Below, piece after piece: positions 59,444 through 63,370 of a DNA stretch of 64,000 nt. The translations under genes and the position numbers were made by a program. This DNA is from a virus (lineage: Duplodnaviria; Heunggongvirae; Uroviricota; Caudoviricetes). Location: positions 7,267-71,266 of the IMG/VR virus record IMGVR_UViG_3300035701_000006; one strand, given 5' to 3'. A model generated the notes under the pieces. The model was not told where the DNA came from. It worked only from the letters and a program-made list of their open reading frames with translations, and did not search any database. How positions within the stretch are numbered: the first letter of the stretch is position 1; every line of letters begins with the position of its first letter.

Positions 59444-59508
59444 AGAGGAATTTGCCAAGAGTATCTAAACATAGGATGATGGAGCAATCCTCAGGGCAGC
59501 GCGCCGCA

Positions 59509-59673
59509 GGAATCTCCTGATTCCACGTTCCTTTGCCGCAGGGCCGTGAGGCCGCCGGCGAAGCAAAGCCAGGTGCCCGGCGACGGCACCCGGGTGTCAG
59601 GGAAGCCTTTAGAGCCTGGTGCGGCTTCCGCACTCCCGGAGTTGTCGGACGTCAAAAGGAAGTGGAGGACACT
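59509..59673 (+). promoter_or_regulatory. Structured 5' leader of the vWA gene with an anti-SD helix
   Basis: 59521-59535 is complementary to 59653-59667 (covering GGAG). Three internal hairpins, and a competing hairpin at 59509-59524. Confidence 0.45.
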
Positions 59674-61191
59674 ATGTCCGCGCCATCCGTGTCTTTGTCT
59701 GCACGCCTCGGTCTCTCGAAGGTCTCGTACGAGAATCCTGGCGAGAACCACCTTCTAATCACCCTGGAAGGCGGCAAGCTCGACAAGTCCAAGACCAGGA
59801 AGCCCCTCCGCGTCGGAGCTGCCATCGACACCTCCGGGAGCATGGCGGGGCAGAAGCTGGACTTCGCCATCAAGTCCCTCTGCATTTTCGTCGACAACCT
59901 CACCGCCGACGACATGTTCGGCGTCTGTGGGTTCTCCGACAACGTCTTCTCCGTCGTCAAGCCTGCCTTTATGACTCCGGAGAACAAGGAGGCCGCGAAG
60001 GCGGAGATCAGGGGTCTCAGGTCGATGAGCGCGACGAACCTGTCCGGAGCGACCATCGAGGCCTTCAACCTCGCCAACGCCGACAGGCCGAAGAAGGACA
60101 AGGTGCCCAAGGCTGAGTTCGGGAAGCTCGGGGCGGCCAAGATCATCGACGACGCGAACGACGTCGATGATGGGTTCCTTTGTCGCGGCTTCCTGTTCAC
60201 GGATGGGCAGCCAACGGCCGGAGATACATCGAAGGAAGGGCTCATTAAGCTGGCTGGAAGCCGGATCGGCGGGGCGAGCCTGACCGCCTTTGGCTACGGC
60301 AGCGACCACGATGCGGAGCTCCTGGCGTCGATGGCCAGCAAGGGCGGCGGCAATTACTACTTCATCGAGGACTTCGACAAGTGCCCGGCTTTCTTCGGCC
60401 GGGAGCTTGGGGGCCTCATCTCCTGCATGGCGCAGGGCATCAAGATCAAGATCAAGGCGGCCTCGGGCGTCAAGTTCACCAAGGTCTTCAACGATCTCGA
60501 CGTGGACGCCAGCGACGACCAGTCTGAGTGCACCATCTCAATGGACGACGTCTATGCGGAAGAGAAGCGCAAGATTCTCATCCTTACGGAGCTGCCCGAG
60601 AAGAGCAAGGCTGTCGCGGCTCGGGCGTCCAAGCTCTGTGACATTGAGGTGACGTACGTCGATCTCAAGACGGGTGAGAAGGTCAAGCTGGAGGACTCCG
60701 TCAAGATCGAGTATGTCAAAGAGGATGAGGCCGACAAGAAGGTCGATAAGGAGGTCGAAGAGCAGATCGTCCGTTTCAAGGGCCTCGAGGCTCAAGAAGA
60801 GGCCCGAGCCTTCGCCGACAGAGGCAACTTCGCGGGTGGCCAGTCGGTACTTCGGAGCTTCTCTGCTTTCGCGGGTAATCAAGGCTGGCAGGGAATGGCC
60901 GACGACGTTGGTGAAGCCGCCCTTTACCTTTCGGACGCCGGCACGTACGAGAGCGGAGGGAAGAAAGGGCTCATGGCCAGATCAATGTCATACGGCACTG
61001 GCCGCGGCGGGACGATCGAGACGGCGGCGATGTTCGGGACCAGGGTTCAGGCCGATACGGCGGCCAAGTTCCAGGACGAGTCGAAGTCTGGGTCCGCTGA
61101 TGCGGCTGGAGGCGCGACAGGAGGGCTGGGCGGGCGCGCGGCTACGGGAGGGGTCGCTGGGAGGCTGTCGAAGAAGCGCAGCCGCAAATAA
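59674..61191 (+). CDS. von Willebrand factor A (vWA) domain protein
   Basis: MIDAS motif AIDTSGSMAG, then TNLSGA, LFTDGQPT, FGYGSDHD..LLASMA..GGGNYYFI. The start is at ATG 59674 after GGAGG. Confidence 0.9.
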   Translation: MSAPSVSLSARLGLSKVSYENPGENHLLITLEGGKLDKSKTRKPLRVGAAIDTSGSMAGQKLDFAIKSLCIFVDNLTADDMFGVCGFSDNVFSVVKPAFMTPENKEAAKAEIRGLRSMSATNLSGATIEAFNLANADRPKKDKVPKAEFGKLGAAKIIDDANDVDDGFLCRGFLFTDGQPTAGDTSKEGLIKLAGSRIGGASLTAFGYGSDHDAELLASMASKGGGNYYFIEDFDKCPAFFGRELGGLISCMAQGIKIKIKAASGVKFTKVFNDLDVDASDDQSECTISMDDVYAEEKRKILILTELPEKSKAVAARASKLCDIEVTYVDLKTGEKVKLEDSVKIEYVKEDEADKKVDKEVEEQIVRFKGLEAQEEARAFADRGNFAGGQSVLRSFSAFAGNQGWQGMADDVGEAALYLSDAGTYESGGKKGLMARSMSYGTGRGGTIETAAMFGTRVQADTAAKFQDESKSGSADAAGGATGGLGGRAATGGVAGRLSKKRSRK

Positions 61192-61247
61192 GCTACATAA
61201 GCTACTGGCAACGACCCCGGCCAACCCGGGGTCGTTGTGTATGTAGC
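61192..61247 (+). terminator. Long hairpin after vWA (terminator or processing site)
   Basis: CAACGACCCCGG-CCAAC-CCGGGGTCGTTG inside GCTACATA/TATGTAGC. The U-tract is weak. Confidence 0.55.
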
Positions 61248-61258
61248 AAAGATAAAGT

Positions 61259-61420
61259 ATGAAAATAAAGATAGTTAAGATCATACTTGCAATAGCGGCT
61301 GTCGCCCTTGCTACCGTCATCGTGTACGATAAGAAGACCGATTATATCTATGCCGGGATACTTCTCGTGATTGTCGCGCTCTTCATGAACCTTGACAGGA
61401 ATGACGACGTAGGACACTGA
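61259..61420 (+). CDS. 53-aa two-TM protein, holin candidate
   Basis: Hand translation MKIKIVKIILAIAAVALATVIVYDKKTDYIYAGILLVIVALFMNLDRNDDVGH. CAAAGATA motif upstream and the endolysin downstream. Confidence 0.45.
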   Translation: MKIKIVKIILAIAAVALATVIVYDKKTDYIYAGILLVIVALFMNLDRNDDVGH

Positions 61421-61461
61421 GTATCTCATCTTCTAAGGGTTCATTGGAGGGACGCGTAAAA

Positions 61462-61685
61462 GTGGTTGACAGAGAGATGGCTGCGGCCAAGCCAATTGGC
61501 CCGCGCGAAGGGCATCGCGCACAGTGGGATGGTCCAAGGCGCAGTGGCGGATTGTCGAGCGCGCGAAGCGGCAAGACCGATAGCGCGCGGGGCCACGGAG
61601 CTAGAAACGAAGCGCCCAAAGTTATCTTGAACTGCCATAAATAGGTGCCGGTGAGAATCCGGCCAGCCATCTCTCTTTCAACCAC
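61462..61685 (+). ncRNA. Candidate ~224-nt structured, tRNA-like RNA
   Basis: 21 of 22 bp terminal stem, two short hairpins, a long nested arm, and a 5-bp/7-nt T-loop-like arm abutting the 3' strand. Confidence 0.55.
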
Positions 61686-61693
61686 GAGGTCGT

Positions 61694-62188
61694 ATGAAGA
61701 CCGGTATACTGGGTCTCAATCTGATCAAGGAATATGAAGGCTTCCGCGGCTCTGTCTATATAGACGGCGCTGGACATGAAACGATAGGGTTTGGTCACAA
61801 GCTGACGGCTAGCGAGGTCTTTAACGGAGCATACATCAACAAGACCATCACAGAGGATCAGGCAATCCAGATCCTCGCCAATGACCTTGTCGTCGCAGAG
61901 AGCGTAGTGTCGAGCGAGGTCATAGTCGAACTGAACCAGAATCAGTTCGACGCGCTGGTCAGCTTCGTGTTCAATCTTGGATCTGGCAACTTCTCCAGGA
62001 GCACGCTTCTGCAGAAGCTCAATGAAGGCGACTACGACTCCGCATCGTCGGAGATCCTCCGGTGGGACAAGCAGACGGACAAGAAGACAGGCATCAAGGA
62101 AAGTGTTCCGGGCCTGGCGAGACGCAGGAAGGCGGAAGCCGACCTGTGGAATGCGCTTCCACCCATGTCCAGTAATGGTGTCGTATGA
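61694..62188 (+). CDS. GH24 phage lysozyme (endolysin)
   Basis: IKEYEGFR..VYIDGAGHETIGFGH, NQNQFDALVSFVFNLG and GLARRRKAE. Confidence 0.95.
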   Translation: MKTGILGLNLIKEYEGFRGSVYIDGAGHETIGFGHKLTASEVFNGAYINKTITEDQAIQILANDLVVAESVVSSEVIVELNQNQFDALVSFVFNLGSGNFSRSTLLQKLNEGDYDSASSEILRWDKQTDKKTGIKESVPGLARRRKAEADLWNALPPMSSNGVV

Positions 62189-63285: not shown

Positions 63286-63370
63286 TTATTTAACATTCTA
63301 TCCACAGTCTCCTAACAGTGAATCCACAAATCCAGTATGCAAATATAAATAAAGTCGAGGAAGATACCCC

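What the first reader, a model, noticed from the sequence alone, without database searches (positions are those of the whole stretch)
61462..61685. tRNA-like ~224-nt structured element between the holin candidate and the endolysin
Seen: 61462-61483 pairs with 61664-61685 (21 of 22 bp). Inside, in tRNA order, are a D-like hairpin GGCC-9nt-GGCC (61485-61501), an anticodon-like hairpin GCGCG-8nt-CGCGC (61503-61520), a very long nested arm (GGCGC/GCGCC, GTGGC/GCCAC, GCGCGC/GCGCGC, CGG-CAAGA-CCG at 61538-61616), and a T-like arm GCCGG-TGAGAAT-CCGGC (61647-61663) joined with no linker to the 3' strand, which ends ...ACCA-C. The stem ends immediately before the endolysin SD (GAGGT at 61686), and a T4-late-like CATAAATA lies inside at 61636. 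Known: T4 gene e is silenced on early transcripts by a hairpin that late-promoter transcripts lack, and tRNA mimics (tmRNA, bacterial Y RNAs) keep an acceptor/T domain. Inference: either a novel tRNA-mimic ncRNA (for example a decoy for anticodon nucleases or a protein scaffold), or an elaborate lysis-timing element, or both.
Basis: partly seen in the sequence, partly recalled or inferred. Interest (0 to 1): 0.78.

Follow-up and report, generated by a model that had tools for sequence, protein, structure and literature searches.

The report
Orphan inverted-repeat spacer before phage endolysin
Between the holin and endolysin genes of an uncultured giant phage lies a 224-base non-coding insert closed by a real 22-base-pair inverted repeat, but it is not tRNA-like, matches no known RNA family and has no relatives, so it is a genuine yet unexplained curiosity.

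Summary
The 22-nt inverted repeat (21 of 22 complementary, 180 nt apart) is real and far beyond chance. It ends one base before the endolysin ribosome-binding site.

- **Not tRNA-like.** ARAGORN finds no tRNA or tmRNA. Rfam gives no hit of any family at E<=10.
- **The interior is not special.** Without the closing stem, the 180-nt interior folds no better than shuffled sequence (z -1.2).
- **Not a Y RNA.** The Rfam YrlA model finds this phage's own Y RNA elsewhere but not this element.
- **Not a partner RNA of the phage's reverse transcriptase.** A covariance model I built for that family recovers two held-out members but not this element.
- **Not coding.** No reading frame has the phage's codon usage, and gene callers leave the gap empty.
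- **Not a T4 gene e-style switch.** The stem does not cover the ribosome-binding site or the start codon.
- **No relatives.** The element is single-copy. It is identical in all seven assemblies of this phage checked base by base, and an eighth has the same gap length. I found it in no related giant phage, nor as its arms in 185,579 species genomes or IMG/VR.

My best reading has modest confidence. The element is a lineage-specific spacer transcribed within the holin-endolysin message, and its 22-bp RNA helix acts on that message as a cleavage or stabilising site. A functionless DNA insertion is almost as likely. Low-to-moderate interest.

The parts
61462..61483 (+). 5' arm of the 22-nt inverted repeat (closing stem P1)
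   Evidence: 21 of 22 complementary to 61664-61685; pairing probability above 0.9 along the arm
61664..61685 (+). 3' arm of the inverted repeat; ends 1 nt before the endolysin ribosome-binding site
61484..61663 (+). 180-nt GC-rich interior (CGCG and GCGC 7-8 times the genome rate); not coding; folding not beyond chance
   Evidence: z -1.21 and -1.03; best frame score -0.15 against 0.30 +/- 0.19 for genes; flat GC by codon position; composition
   Evidence: pairing probability about 0.99; 6-bp stem and 5-nt loop, unlike a D arm
   Evidence: pairing probability mostly 0.9 or more on the + strand; the equivalent region on the - strand is poorly defined
61559..61588 (+). GCGCGC / GCGCGC hairpin with apical CGG-CAAGA-CCG
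   Evidence: pairing probability about 0.88-0.99; surrounding helices of the 'long arm' are 0.3-0.7
61647..61663 (+). hairpin H4, GCCGG-TGAGAAT-CCGGC, abutting the 3' arm (the 'T-like' arm)
   Evidence: also scored as a weak terminator-like site on the - strand
61636..61643 (+). CATAAATA, the proposed internal late promoter
   Evidence: the only copy on the + strand; 5 of 8 match to this phage's recurrent upstream motif
61447..61464 (+). GGAGGG, 9 nt, then GTG: a ribosome-binding-like site placed to start a 60-codon open frame at the first base of the 5' arm
   Evidence: that frame scores -0.15 on codon usage; no homologue
61686..61696 (+). endolysin ribosome-binding site GAGG and ATG start
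61259..61420 (+). 53-aa two-transmembrane holin candidate, preceded by CAAAGATAA 4 nt before the ATG and no ribosome-binding site
61694..62188 (+). GH24 (T4-lysozyme type) endolysin, 164 aa
   Evidence: PF00959, E 1.8e-39
61193..61237 (+). CTACATAA (candidate late promoter of the lysis operon) followed by a 12-bp hairpin at 61209-61237

Best explanation
The element is a lineage-specific, non-coding spacer of about 224 nt. It sits inside the transcript that carries the holin, endolysin and exoribonuclease genes, all on the + strand. Its one feature beyond chance is a 22-bp helix that clamps a GC-rich 180-nt loop.

**Shown:** the repeat is real, the element is non-coding, it is single-copy, and it has no relatives.

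**Inferred:**
- The region is co-transcribed from a promoter-like CTACATAA upstream of the holin. No terminator lies between the holin and the endolysin on the + strand.
- Once transcribed, the two arms form about two turns of perfect double-stranded RNA directly 5' of the endolysin ribosome-binding site.
- Such a helix is the kind of substrate that RNase III-type enzymes cut, and it can also protect a 5' end.
- The most likely action is therefore on the message. It would separate the endolysin-exoribonuclease message from the holin message, or stabilise it, and it would abolish translational coupling. That would set the holin to endolysin ratio.
- It does not act as a tRNA mimic, and it does not hide the ribosome-binding site.
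- Whether this effect is selected for, or is just a tolerated consequence of an insertion, is not known.
For: - The repeat is real and highly improbable by chance.
- All neighbouring genes are on the + strand, and the scan finds no + strand terminator between holin and endolysin.
- The + strand folds better and more sharply than the - strand: -108.9 against -102.4 kcal/mol, 46 against 38 pairs with probability above 0.9, and interior -71.3 against -65.5 kcal/mol.
- It is not coding. The best of six frames scores -0.15, against 0.30 +/- 0.19 for genes. GC by codon position is 0.65/0.61/0.65, against 0.58/0.41/0.69 in genes. Independent gene calls leave the 273-nt gap empty in two other assemblies.
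- There is a precedent in the same genome. The reverse-transcriptase partner RNA is also a domain closed by an 18-21-bp end-to-end helix, wedged between two genes with its 3' arm at the next start codon. That architecture is supported by covariation: 23 of 36 pairs carry compensatory changes across five phages.
- The element and the gap length are unchanged wherever this phage was assembled. The sequence is identical in three runs and one JGI contig, and the gap is the same 273 nt in an ENA contig.
Against: - There is no homologue, so there is no covariation test.
- The interior is no more structured than shuffled sequence.
- The closing stem has only Watson-Crick pairs, so it fits a DNA-level repeat equally well.
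- Only two helices of 20 bp or more closing such domains exist in 137 kb, so processing at such helices is not a general habit of this phage.
- The nearest relative with a lysis region on hand has a GH24 endolysin without any structured upstream element (z +0.24). The element is therefore dispensable for this kind of phage.
- Predicted accessibility of the ribosome-binding site barely changes with or without the stem.
Confidence: 0.35

Rival explanations
1. The element is a functionless or selfish DNA insertion. Either it is a miniature inverted-repeat element, or it is a quasi-palindrome made by template switching, that landed between holin and endolysin and is merely tolerated. The RNA helix would be a by-product.
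For: - It has terminal inverted repeats of 22 bp with only Watson-Crick matches.
- The interior is not structured beyond chance.
- Composition is atypical: CGCG and GCGC occur at 7-8 times the genome rate, and core GC is 0.64-0.71 against flanks of 0.45-0.52.
- It is absent from every related giant phage examined, and the whole vWA-holin-endolysin block is an accessory region.
Against: - It is single-copy in the 137-kb record.
- The arms do not occur, exactly or as a two-arm pattern, in 185,579 species genomes or in IMG/VR.
- No target-site duplication flanks it: the left flank is ...GTAAAA and the right flank is GAGGTC....
- No empty site was seen in the other assemblies.
- No serine or tyrosine recombinase gene lies in the available 137 kb. 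Transposases were not searched for.
Confidence: 0.3
2. The element is a stand-alone or processed trans-acting non-coding RNA. Cut out of the lysis message at the closing stem, it would serve as a decoy or as a partner for one of the phage's RNA-binding proteins (Ro60, the reverse transcriptase or another). The first reader's tRNA-mimic idea belongs here.
For: - The genome carries an unusual load of RNA biology: Ro60 with several Y-like RNAs, 47 tRNAs, and a reverse transcriptase with a helix-closed partner RNA.
- The element shares that end-to-end helix architecture.
- It contains TGGGATGG, which resembles the conserved template-loop motif of the reverse-transcriptase RNA family.
Against: - ARAGORN and all 4227 Rfam models are silent.
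- The YrlA model does not hit it, and neither does my model R1 of the reverse-transcriptase RNA family (best 3.6 bits, trivial hairpins). R1 does recover the held-out members L186 (31.9 bits) and L187 (51.4 bits).
- One shared 7-mer between two such sequences is expected by chance (about 1.2 expected).
- It lies 12 kb from the reverse transcriptase and outside the tRNA and Y-RNA island.
- It has no promoter or terminator of its own.
Confidence: 0.12
3. The element is a T4 gene e-style lysis-timing switch. Transcripts from upstream would carry the full stem and translate endolysin poorly. Transcripts from an internal late promoter (CATAAATA) would lack the 5' arm and translate well.
For: - CATAAATA lies inside the element, 51 nt (one search's count) before the ATG.
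- The stem abuts the ribosome-binding site.
- With the stem formed, the stretch from -20 to +15 is less open: unpaired probability is 0.29-0.32, against 0.49-0.52 without it.
Against: - The ribosome-binding site and the ATG are outside the helix, and their own accessibility does not change.
- The motif is a single occurrence and a 5-of-8 match to the phage's recurrent (A)GTACATAA. The better copy lies before the holin.
- A 180-nt interior is not needed for such a switch.
Confidence: 0.08
4. A short peptide is translated across the element: a leader peptide or a small protein starting at GTG 61462 behind GGAGGG, or the 54-aa frame at 61466.
For: - A strong ribosome-binding-like GGAGGG lies 9 nt before a GTG that opens a 60-codon frame.
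- The 54-aa frame has a helix-turn-helix-like stretch (my reading).
Against: - Codon usage is off in all six frames, and GC by codon position is flat.
- Pfam gives no hit.
- tBLASTN against 50,697 phage records gives nothing for the 66-aa frame.
- For the 54-aa frame it gives only two hits, at E 0.4-0.6. These fall antisense or out of frame to real genes of a GC-rich Ralstonia phage.
- Gene callers call nothing here.
Confidence: 0.06
5. The element is an invertible DNA switch: a promoter-sized segment flanked by inverted repeats directly upstream of a gene and flipped by a site-specific recombinase.
For: The geometry fits: 22-bp inverted repeats, a 180-bp segment, and an intergenic position immediately upstream of a gene.
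Against: - No serine or tyrosine recombinase lies in the 137 kb on hand.
- All assemblies show the same orientation, and no strand-changing joints were seen. These were contigs only, which hide minority forms.
- An OFF state of the endolysin makes little sense for a lytic phage.
Confidence: 0.04

Closest known systems
RNase III processing and stabiliser helices in phage polycistronic messages (T7 intergenic sites, lambda sib and N leader, SP82); from my own knowledge, not re-read here
   Same: It is a long double-stranded RNA helix placed between cistrons of a phage operon, next to the start of the downstream gene. At 22 bp it reaches the roughly two helical turns such enzymes need.
   Different: Classical sites are compact hairpins of about 50-60 nt, usually with an internal loop. 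They do not clamp a 180-nt interior. No cleavage data exist here, and the host and its RNase III are unknown.
T4 gene e (lysozyme) translational control by an early-transcript hairpin; from my own knowledge
   Same: It is an RNA structure upstream of a T4-type lysozyme gene in a T4-like giant phage, with a TATAAATA-like word inside it.
   Different: In T4 the hairpin contains the ribosome-binding site, and the late transcript starts inside it. Here the site and the ATG lie outside the helix and are equally accessible in all constructs. The word does not match this phage's own upstream motif.
The helix-closed partner RNA of this phage's UG17/UG26-like reverse transcriptase (window-external, genome 80985-81142), related to DRT10 non-coding RNAs (PMC12632851)
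   Same: It lies in the same genome and has the same outline: an end-to-end helix of 18-22 bp, an interior of 120-180 nt, a position between two genes with the 3' arm at the next start codon, an inner stem end reading CTG/CAG, and a TGGGATGG-like word.
   Different: The family model R1 gives it no score. It lacks the conserved TATCCTC, GATGCCTAAAAGCT, GGTTnATGTAAG and CCGTTTT blocks. It is not next to a reverse transcriptase.
YrlA-type bacterial and phage Y RNAs (Rfam RF02553) with Ro60
   Same: The 5' and 3' ends pair into a terminal stem, and the phage encodes Ro60 and Y-like RNAs.
   Different: The RF02553 model gives no match at E<=10, whereas it scores 54 bits on the phage's own Y RNA. 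It has no internal-loop Ro60 site and no tRNA-like module. It is twice the length and lies outside the tRNA island.
Miniature inverted-repeat transposable elements, and the small mobile elements of mycobacteriophages (MPME; cited in PMC3029335, details from my own knowledge)
   Same: It is a short non-coding segment bounded by terminal inverted repeats, inserted between phage genes and absent from relatives.
   Different: It is a single copy with no target-site duplication. No other copy turned up in any collection searched, and there is no transposase partner.

Membership tests
tRNA / tRNA-like mimic | Cloverleaf recognised by tRNA detectors | tested here: not met
   ARAGORN finds 0 genes in the window, and 0 at lowered thresholds down to 70% without introns. 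The Rfam tRNA model gives no hit at E<=10 on 261 nt with lax filters.
tRNA / tRNA-like mimic | T-loop consensus (TTCRA..) and a free single-stranded NCCA 3' end | tested here: not met
   The loop is TGAGAAT, which matches 3 of the 5 defined positions. The terminal ...ACCAC is fully paired with the 5' end.
YrlA / Y RNA (RF02553) | Match to the family covariance model (terminal helix with conserved internal loop plus tRNA-like domain) | tested here: not met
   No hit at E<=10. The same model scores 54.1 bits on genome 123521-123658.
Reverse-transcriptase partner RNA of this phage lineage (DRT10-like) | Match to a covariance model of the family | tested here: not met
   Model R1 was built from 5 loci, and 23 of its 36 pairs carry compensatory changes. 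It scores 3.6 bits at best here, against 31.9 and 51.4 bits for held-out members.
Reverse-transcriptase partner RNA of this phage lineage (DRT10-like) | Lies directly upstream of the reverse transcriptase gene | tested here: not met
   The gene starts at genome 81122 and the element lies at 68728-68951, 12 kb away.
Miniature inverted-repeat transposable element | Terminal inverted repeats | tested here: met
   22 nt, 21 of 22 complementary.
Miniature inverted-repeat transposable element | Several copies, and a target-site duplication | tested here: not met
   One copy in the record. None in IMG/VR or in 185,579 species genomes. The flanks AAAA and GAGG are not a duplication. The host genome may be missing from the collections.
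T4 gene e-type translational occlusion | Ribosome-binding site or start codon sequestered in the helix and freed in transcripts from an internal promoter | tested here: not met
   The helix ends at 61685 and the site starts at 61686. Its unpaired probability is 0.36-0.50 in all four constructs.
Invertible promoter switch | Both orientations present, and a site-specific recombinase | tested here: inconclusive
   One orientation in all assemblies, but these were contigs only. PF00239 and PF00589 are absent from the 137 kb, which is about 37% of the genome.
RNase III-type processing or stabiliser helix | About 20 bp or more of uninterrupted double-stranded RNA within a transcript | tested here: met
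   8 bp, one C-U mismatch, then 13 bp. Pairing probability is above 0.9. Co-transcription is inferred from gene order and the lack of a terminator.
RNase III-type processing or stabiliser helix | Cleavage in the helix, and an effect on message fate | not testable with these tools
   No RNA data were available for this phage.

The most novel reading that the evidence does not exclude
The element would be the founding member of a new class of helix-closed non-coding RNAs of giant phages. It would be excised from the lysis message at its 22-bp stem and act in trans, for example as a partner or decoy for one of the phage's RNA-binding proteins, or as a sensor that ties endolysin production to the state of the cell.
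Probability: 0.1. Interest if true: 0.6.

Novelty: new member of a known kind. Interest (0 to 1): 0.3.

Why it matters
If the helix really governs the endolysin message, it would be a simple and previously unseen way for a giant phage to uncouple holin and endolysin output, and a handle on lysis timing in an uncultured lineage.

As it stands, the main value is negative. The attractive tRNA-mimic reading does not hold. The element is an orphan with a single significant feature, so it should not be counted among the phage's tRNA-like or Y-like RNAs.

The genome does contain well-supported helix-closed RNAs (the reverse-transcriptase partner RNA and the Y RNAs). These give the right comparison set if relatives of this element turn up.

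Tried and rejected
**Searches for relatives**
- The endolysin has no relative above 53% identity apart from this phage's own variants, in IMG/VR, JGI metagenomes or the 5.8-billion-protein set. None of about 160 endolysin loci carries a similar sequence or a long inverted repeat upstream of the gene.
- The vWA neighbour has no relative in IMG/VR or in the giant-phage records.
- The capsid protein finds many giant phages at 72-85% identity. Five whole records, their 10-kb flanks and G001 lack the element, the vWA gene and a close endolysin.
- L192 has a 47%-identical endolysin with an unstructured upstream region.
- The exoribonuclease neighbour is too widespread to mark synteny.

**Arm patterns.** The full arm, and a two-arm pattern with a free interior, gave nothing in viral contigs or genome contigs.

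**Sequencing runs**
- No RNA holder is listed for this stretch.
- Four sediment DNA runs were laid. X3, X4 and X5 have a contig right across the element; X6 has no cover over it.
- No differences and no joints were seen in it, so there is no variation to use.

**Earlier scan notes.** A look-up by sequence gave no look-alike.

**Other checks that led nowhere**
- Relatives cannot be drawn for a virus record.
- The 54-aa frame's weak hits in Ralstonia phages are antisense or out-of-frame noise.
- The weak SLATT_4 hit of the holin candidate (E 0.09) was judged to be transmembrane composition only.
- Literature searches for a structured RNA between holin and endolysin, or for such elements in jumbo phages, returned nothing.
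- I did not build a single-sequence covariance model of the element.

Full report
**Context.** The window is part of a 137-kb IMG/VR record, about 37% of a T4-like giant phage from sediment metagenomes. Around the finding, all genes read on the + strand.
- A vWA-domain protein ends at 61191.
- A 12-bp hairpin lies at 61209-61237.
- A 53-aa two-transmembrane holin candidate runs 61259-61420.
- A 273-nt gap follows.
- A GH24 endolysin runs 61694-62188 (PF00959, E 1.8e-39).
- An overlapping Rv2179c-like 3'-5' exoribonuclease follows.

**The observation.**
- The arms 61462-61483 and 61664-61685 are complementary at 21 of 22 positions, 180 nt apart.
- It is the only such repeat in the window. None appeared in 20 block-shuffled windows.
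- In 715 kb of unrelated phage loci, only two repeats of 18 bp or more lie 40-400 nt apart.
- The whole element folds with z -5.9 on the + strand and -5.3 on the - strand.
- That signal belongs to the closing stem. The 180-nt interior alone scores z -1.21 and -1.03, and 22 and 33 of 200 shuffles fold as well.
They are what a GC-rich stretch produces by chance. Several compete with one another in the ensemble, and the 'long nested arm' has pairing probabilities of only 0.3-0.7 outside the GCGCGC hairpin.

**Not tRNA-like, and no known RNA family.**
- ARAGORN finds no tRNA or tmRNA in the window. It finds none in the element at thresholds lowered to 70%. Only with introns allowed at that threshold does it emit three poor calls, two of them on the opposite strand.
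- Rfam's 4227 models give no hit overlapping the element at E<=10 in a 2-kb search, and none at all in a 261-nt search with the laxest filters.
- The 'T-like' loop TGAGAAT matches three of the five defined T-loop positions.
- The '...ACCA-C' end is base-paired to the 5' end.

**Not coding.**
- I trained a codon log-odds score on 63 long ORFs of the genome. It gives 0.30 +/- 0.19 for in-frame 55-codon windows and -0.62 +/- 0.31 for off-frame windows. The six frames of the element score -0.15 to -0.73.
- GC by codon position is flat at 0.65/0.61/0.65, against 0.58/0.41/0.69 in genes.
- Pfam finds nothing in any of the open frames.
- tBLASTN against phage records finds nothing for the 66-aa frame. 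For the 54-aa frame it gives two hits at E 0.4-0.6, which lie antisense or out of frame to real genes of a GC-rich Ralstonia phage.
- Gene callers leave the gap empty in two independent assemblies.

**Links to the phage's other RNA systems.** Earlier notes of this scan and my own searches show that the genome also carries two such systems.
- Ro60 with YrlA-like Y RNAs. The Rfam YrlA model scores 54 bits at genome 123521-123658.
- A UG17/UG26-like reverse transcriptase (PADLOC, E 1e-39) at genome 81122. It is preceded by a 158-nt RNA closed by an 18-21-bp end-to-end helix.

That second helix-closed domain made a link worth testing.
- I collected the upstream regions of reverse transcriptases 50-55% identical to this one. 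Each has a closing helix of 12-21 bp of unrelated sequence.
- Five of them align, with 23 of 36 consensus pairs carrying compensatory changes.
- The covariance model R1 built from them recovers the held-out members L186 (31.9 bits) and L187 (51.4 bits). On the element it scores at most 3.6 bits, from trivial hairpins.
- The shared word TGGGATGG resembles the family's template-loop motif, an A-B-A' pattern as described for DRT10 in PMC12632851. One shared 7-mer between two sequences of these lengths is expected by chance.
- The element is therefore neither a Y RNA nor a reverse-transcriptase partner RNA by any test I could run.

**No relatives, no copies, no variation.**
- The element is single-copy in the record.
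- The arms do not occur, exactly or as a two-arm pattern with a free interior, in IMG/VR or in one genome for each of 185,579 species.
- The endolysin's nearest relatives apart from this phage's own variants are 53% identical or less.
- None of about 160 such loci has a similar sequence or a long repeat upstream of the endolysin.
- The capsid protein identifies many related giant phages at 72-85% identity. Three complete genomes (320-395 kb), two large fragments and G001 lack the element, the vWA gene and a close endolysin.
- The one close relative with an endolysin on hand (L192, 47% identity) has an unstructured upstream region, z +0.24. The block is accessory and the element is lineage-specific.
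- Contigs of three further sediment runs, a JGI contig and an ENA contig carry the same gap. The sequence is identical where DNA was available. There was no empty site, no inversion joint and no polymorphism. These were contigs, which hide minority forms.

**Mechanism.**
- A recurrent motif, (A)GTACATAA, lies 25-67 nt upstream of several structural genes. It occurs as CTACATAA at 61193-61200, before the holin.
- The CATAAATA inside the element is the only copy on this strand and matches 5 of 8 positions.
- No terminator-like site lies on the + strand between holin and endolysin. The element is therefore most likely transcribed within the lysis message.
- The + strand folds somewhat better and more sharply than the - strand.
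- The helix stops one base before the ribosome-binding site GAGG. The predicted unpaired probability of that site (0.36-0.50) and of the ATG is much the same with the full element, without the 5' arm, or from a start at 61650. Only the stretch from -20 to -9 changes. A T4 gene e-type occlusion is not supported.
- What remains physically certain, if the region is transcribed, is about two turns of perfect double-stranded RNA directly 5' of the endolysin start. That is the kind of structure RNase III-type enzymes cut and that can protect a 5' end.
- I therefore rank an intercistronic processing or stabilising helix first (0.35). A neutral or selfish DNA insertion comes close behind (0.30).

**Arguments for the insertion reading.** The stem has only Watson-Crick pairs, the interior is unremarkable, the composition is atypical, and the element is absent from relatives.

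**Arguments against it.** The element is single-copy, there is no target-site duplication, and no other copy turned up anywhere.

**Lesser readings.** A trans-acting RNA (0.12), a T4 e-like switch (0.08), a leader peptide behind the GGAGGG-N9-GTG at 61447-61464 (0.06) and an invertible switch (0.04; no recombinase in the 137 kb) are not excluded.

**Verdict.** The inverted repeat is real and unusual. The tRNA-like anatomy is not. The element belongs to no known family and has no relatives, so neither covariation nor expression could be tested. Interest is low to moderate.

Noticed in passing
window 7694, 34708, 38062, 46565, 61193-61200; genome 88011: The motif (A)GTACATAA lies 25-67 nt upstream of the starts of several structural genes. 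Five of the six GTACATAA copies in the genome are upstream of genes. It is a candidate late-promoter element. The copy before the holin (CTACATAA) is followed at once by a 12-bp hairpin at 61209-61237, which may serve both as the vWA terminator and as a 5' hairpin of the lysis message.
   Followed up: partly
window 15367, 34743, 40844, 61248, 63340; genome 124822: CAAATATA or CAAAGATAA sits only 4-11 nt before several ATG starts that have no ribosome-binding site, the holin among them. The copy at 63340 is 24 nt upstream and does have a GAGG-like site. This suggests leaderless or otherwise unconventional translation starts for a subset of genes.
   Followed up: no
window 59500-59690: The vWA gene leader has a long-range helix (TTCCAC.GTTCCTTTG with CAAAAGGAAGTGGAG) that buries its ribosome-binding site and encloses GC-rich hairpins. 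The outline is the same as the element studied, but the fold is only marginally better than shuffles (z -1.74, 9 of 200).
   Followed up: partly
genome 80985-81142 (L086:486-643) and L179, L182, L183, L185, L186, L187: The reverse-transcriptase partner RNA family has a closing helix of 12-21 bp that differs completely between phages, and 23 of 36 pairs are compensated. Its conserved template-loop word TGGG(R)ATGG forms an A-B-A' pattern like that of DRT10. In L187 the model hit lies on the strand opposite to the reverse transcriptase gene.
   Followed up: partly
window 60812: Contigs of three sediment runs (X3, X5, X6) match the window from 60812 onward. Before that point they carry a different sequence, the same in all three. 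This suggests a strain-level recombination breakpoint inside the 3' part of the vWA gene (table 7).
   Followed up: no
contigs of P0244 (no DNA served): In other phages, the 69%-identical Rv2179c-like exoribonuclease gene is followed directly by a GH108-type lysin gene. So the pairing of exoribonuclease and lysin recurs with a different lysin and in the reverse order.
   Followed up: no
L192:6419-7860: The nearest relative with a lysis region has a 51-aa single-transmembrane protein, a 184-aa ORF, and a GH24 endolysin whose open frame extends 75 codons upstream of the lysozyme domain. This could be an N-terminal extension or a miscalled start.
   Followed up: no
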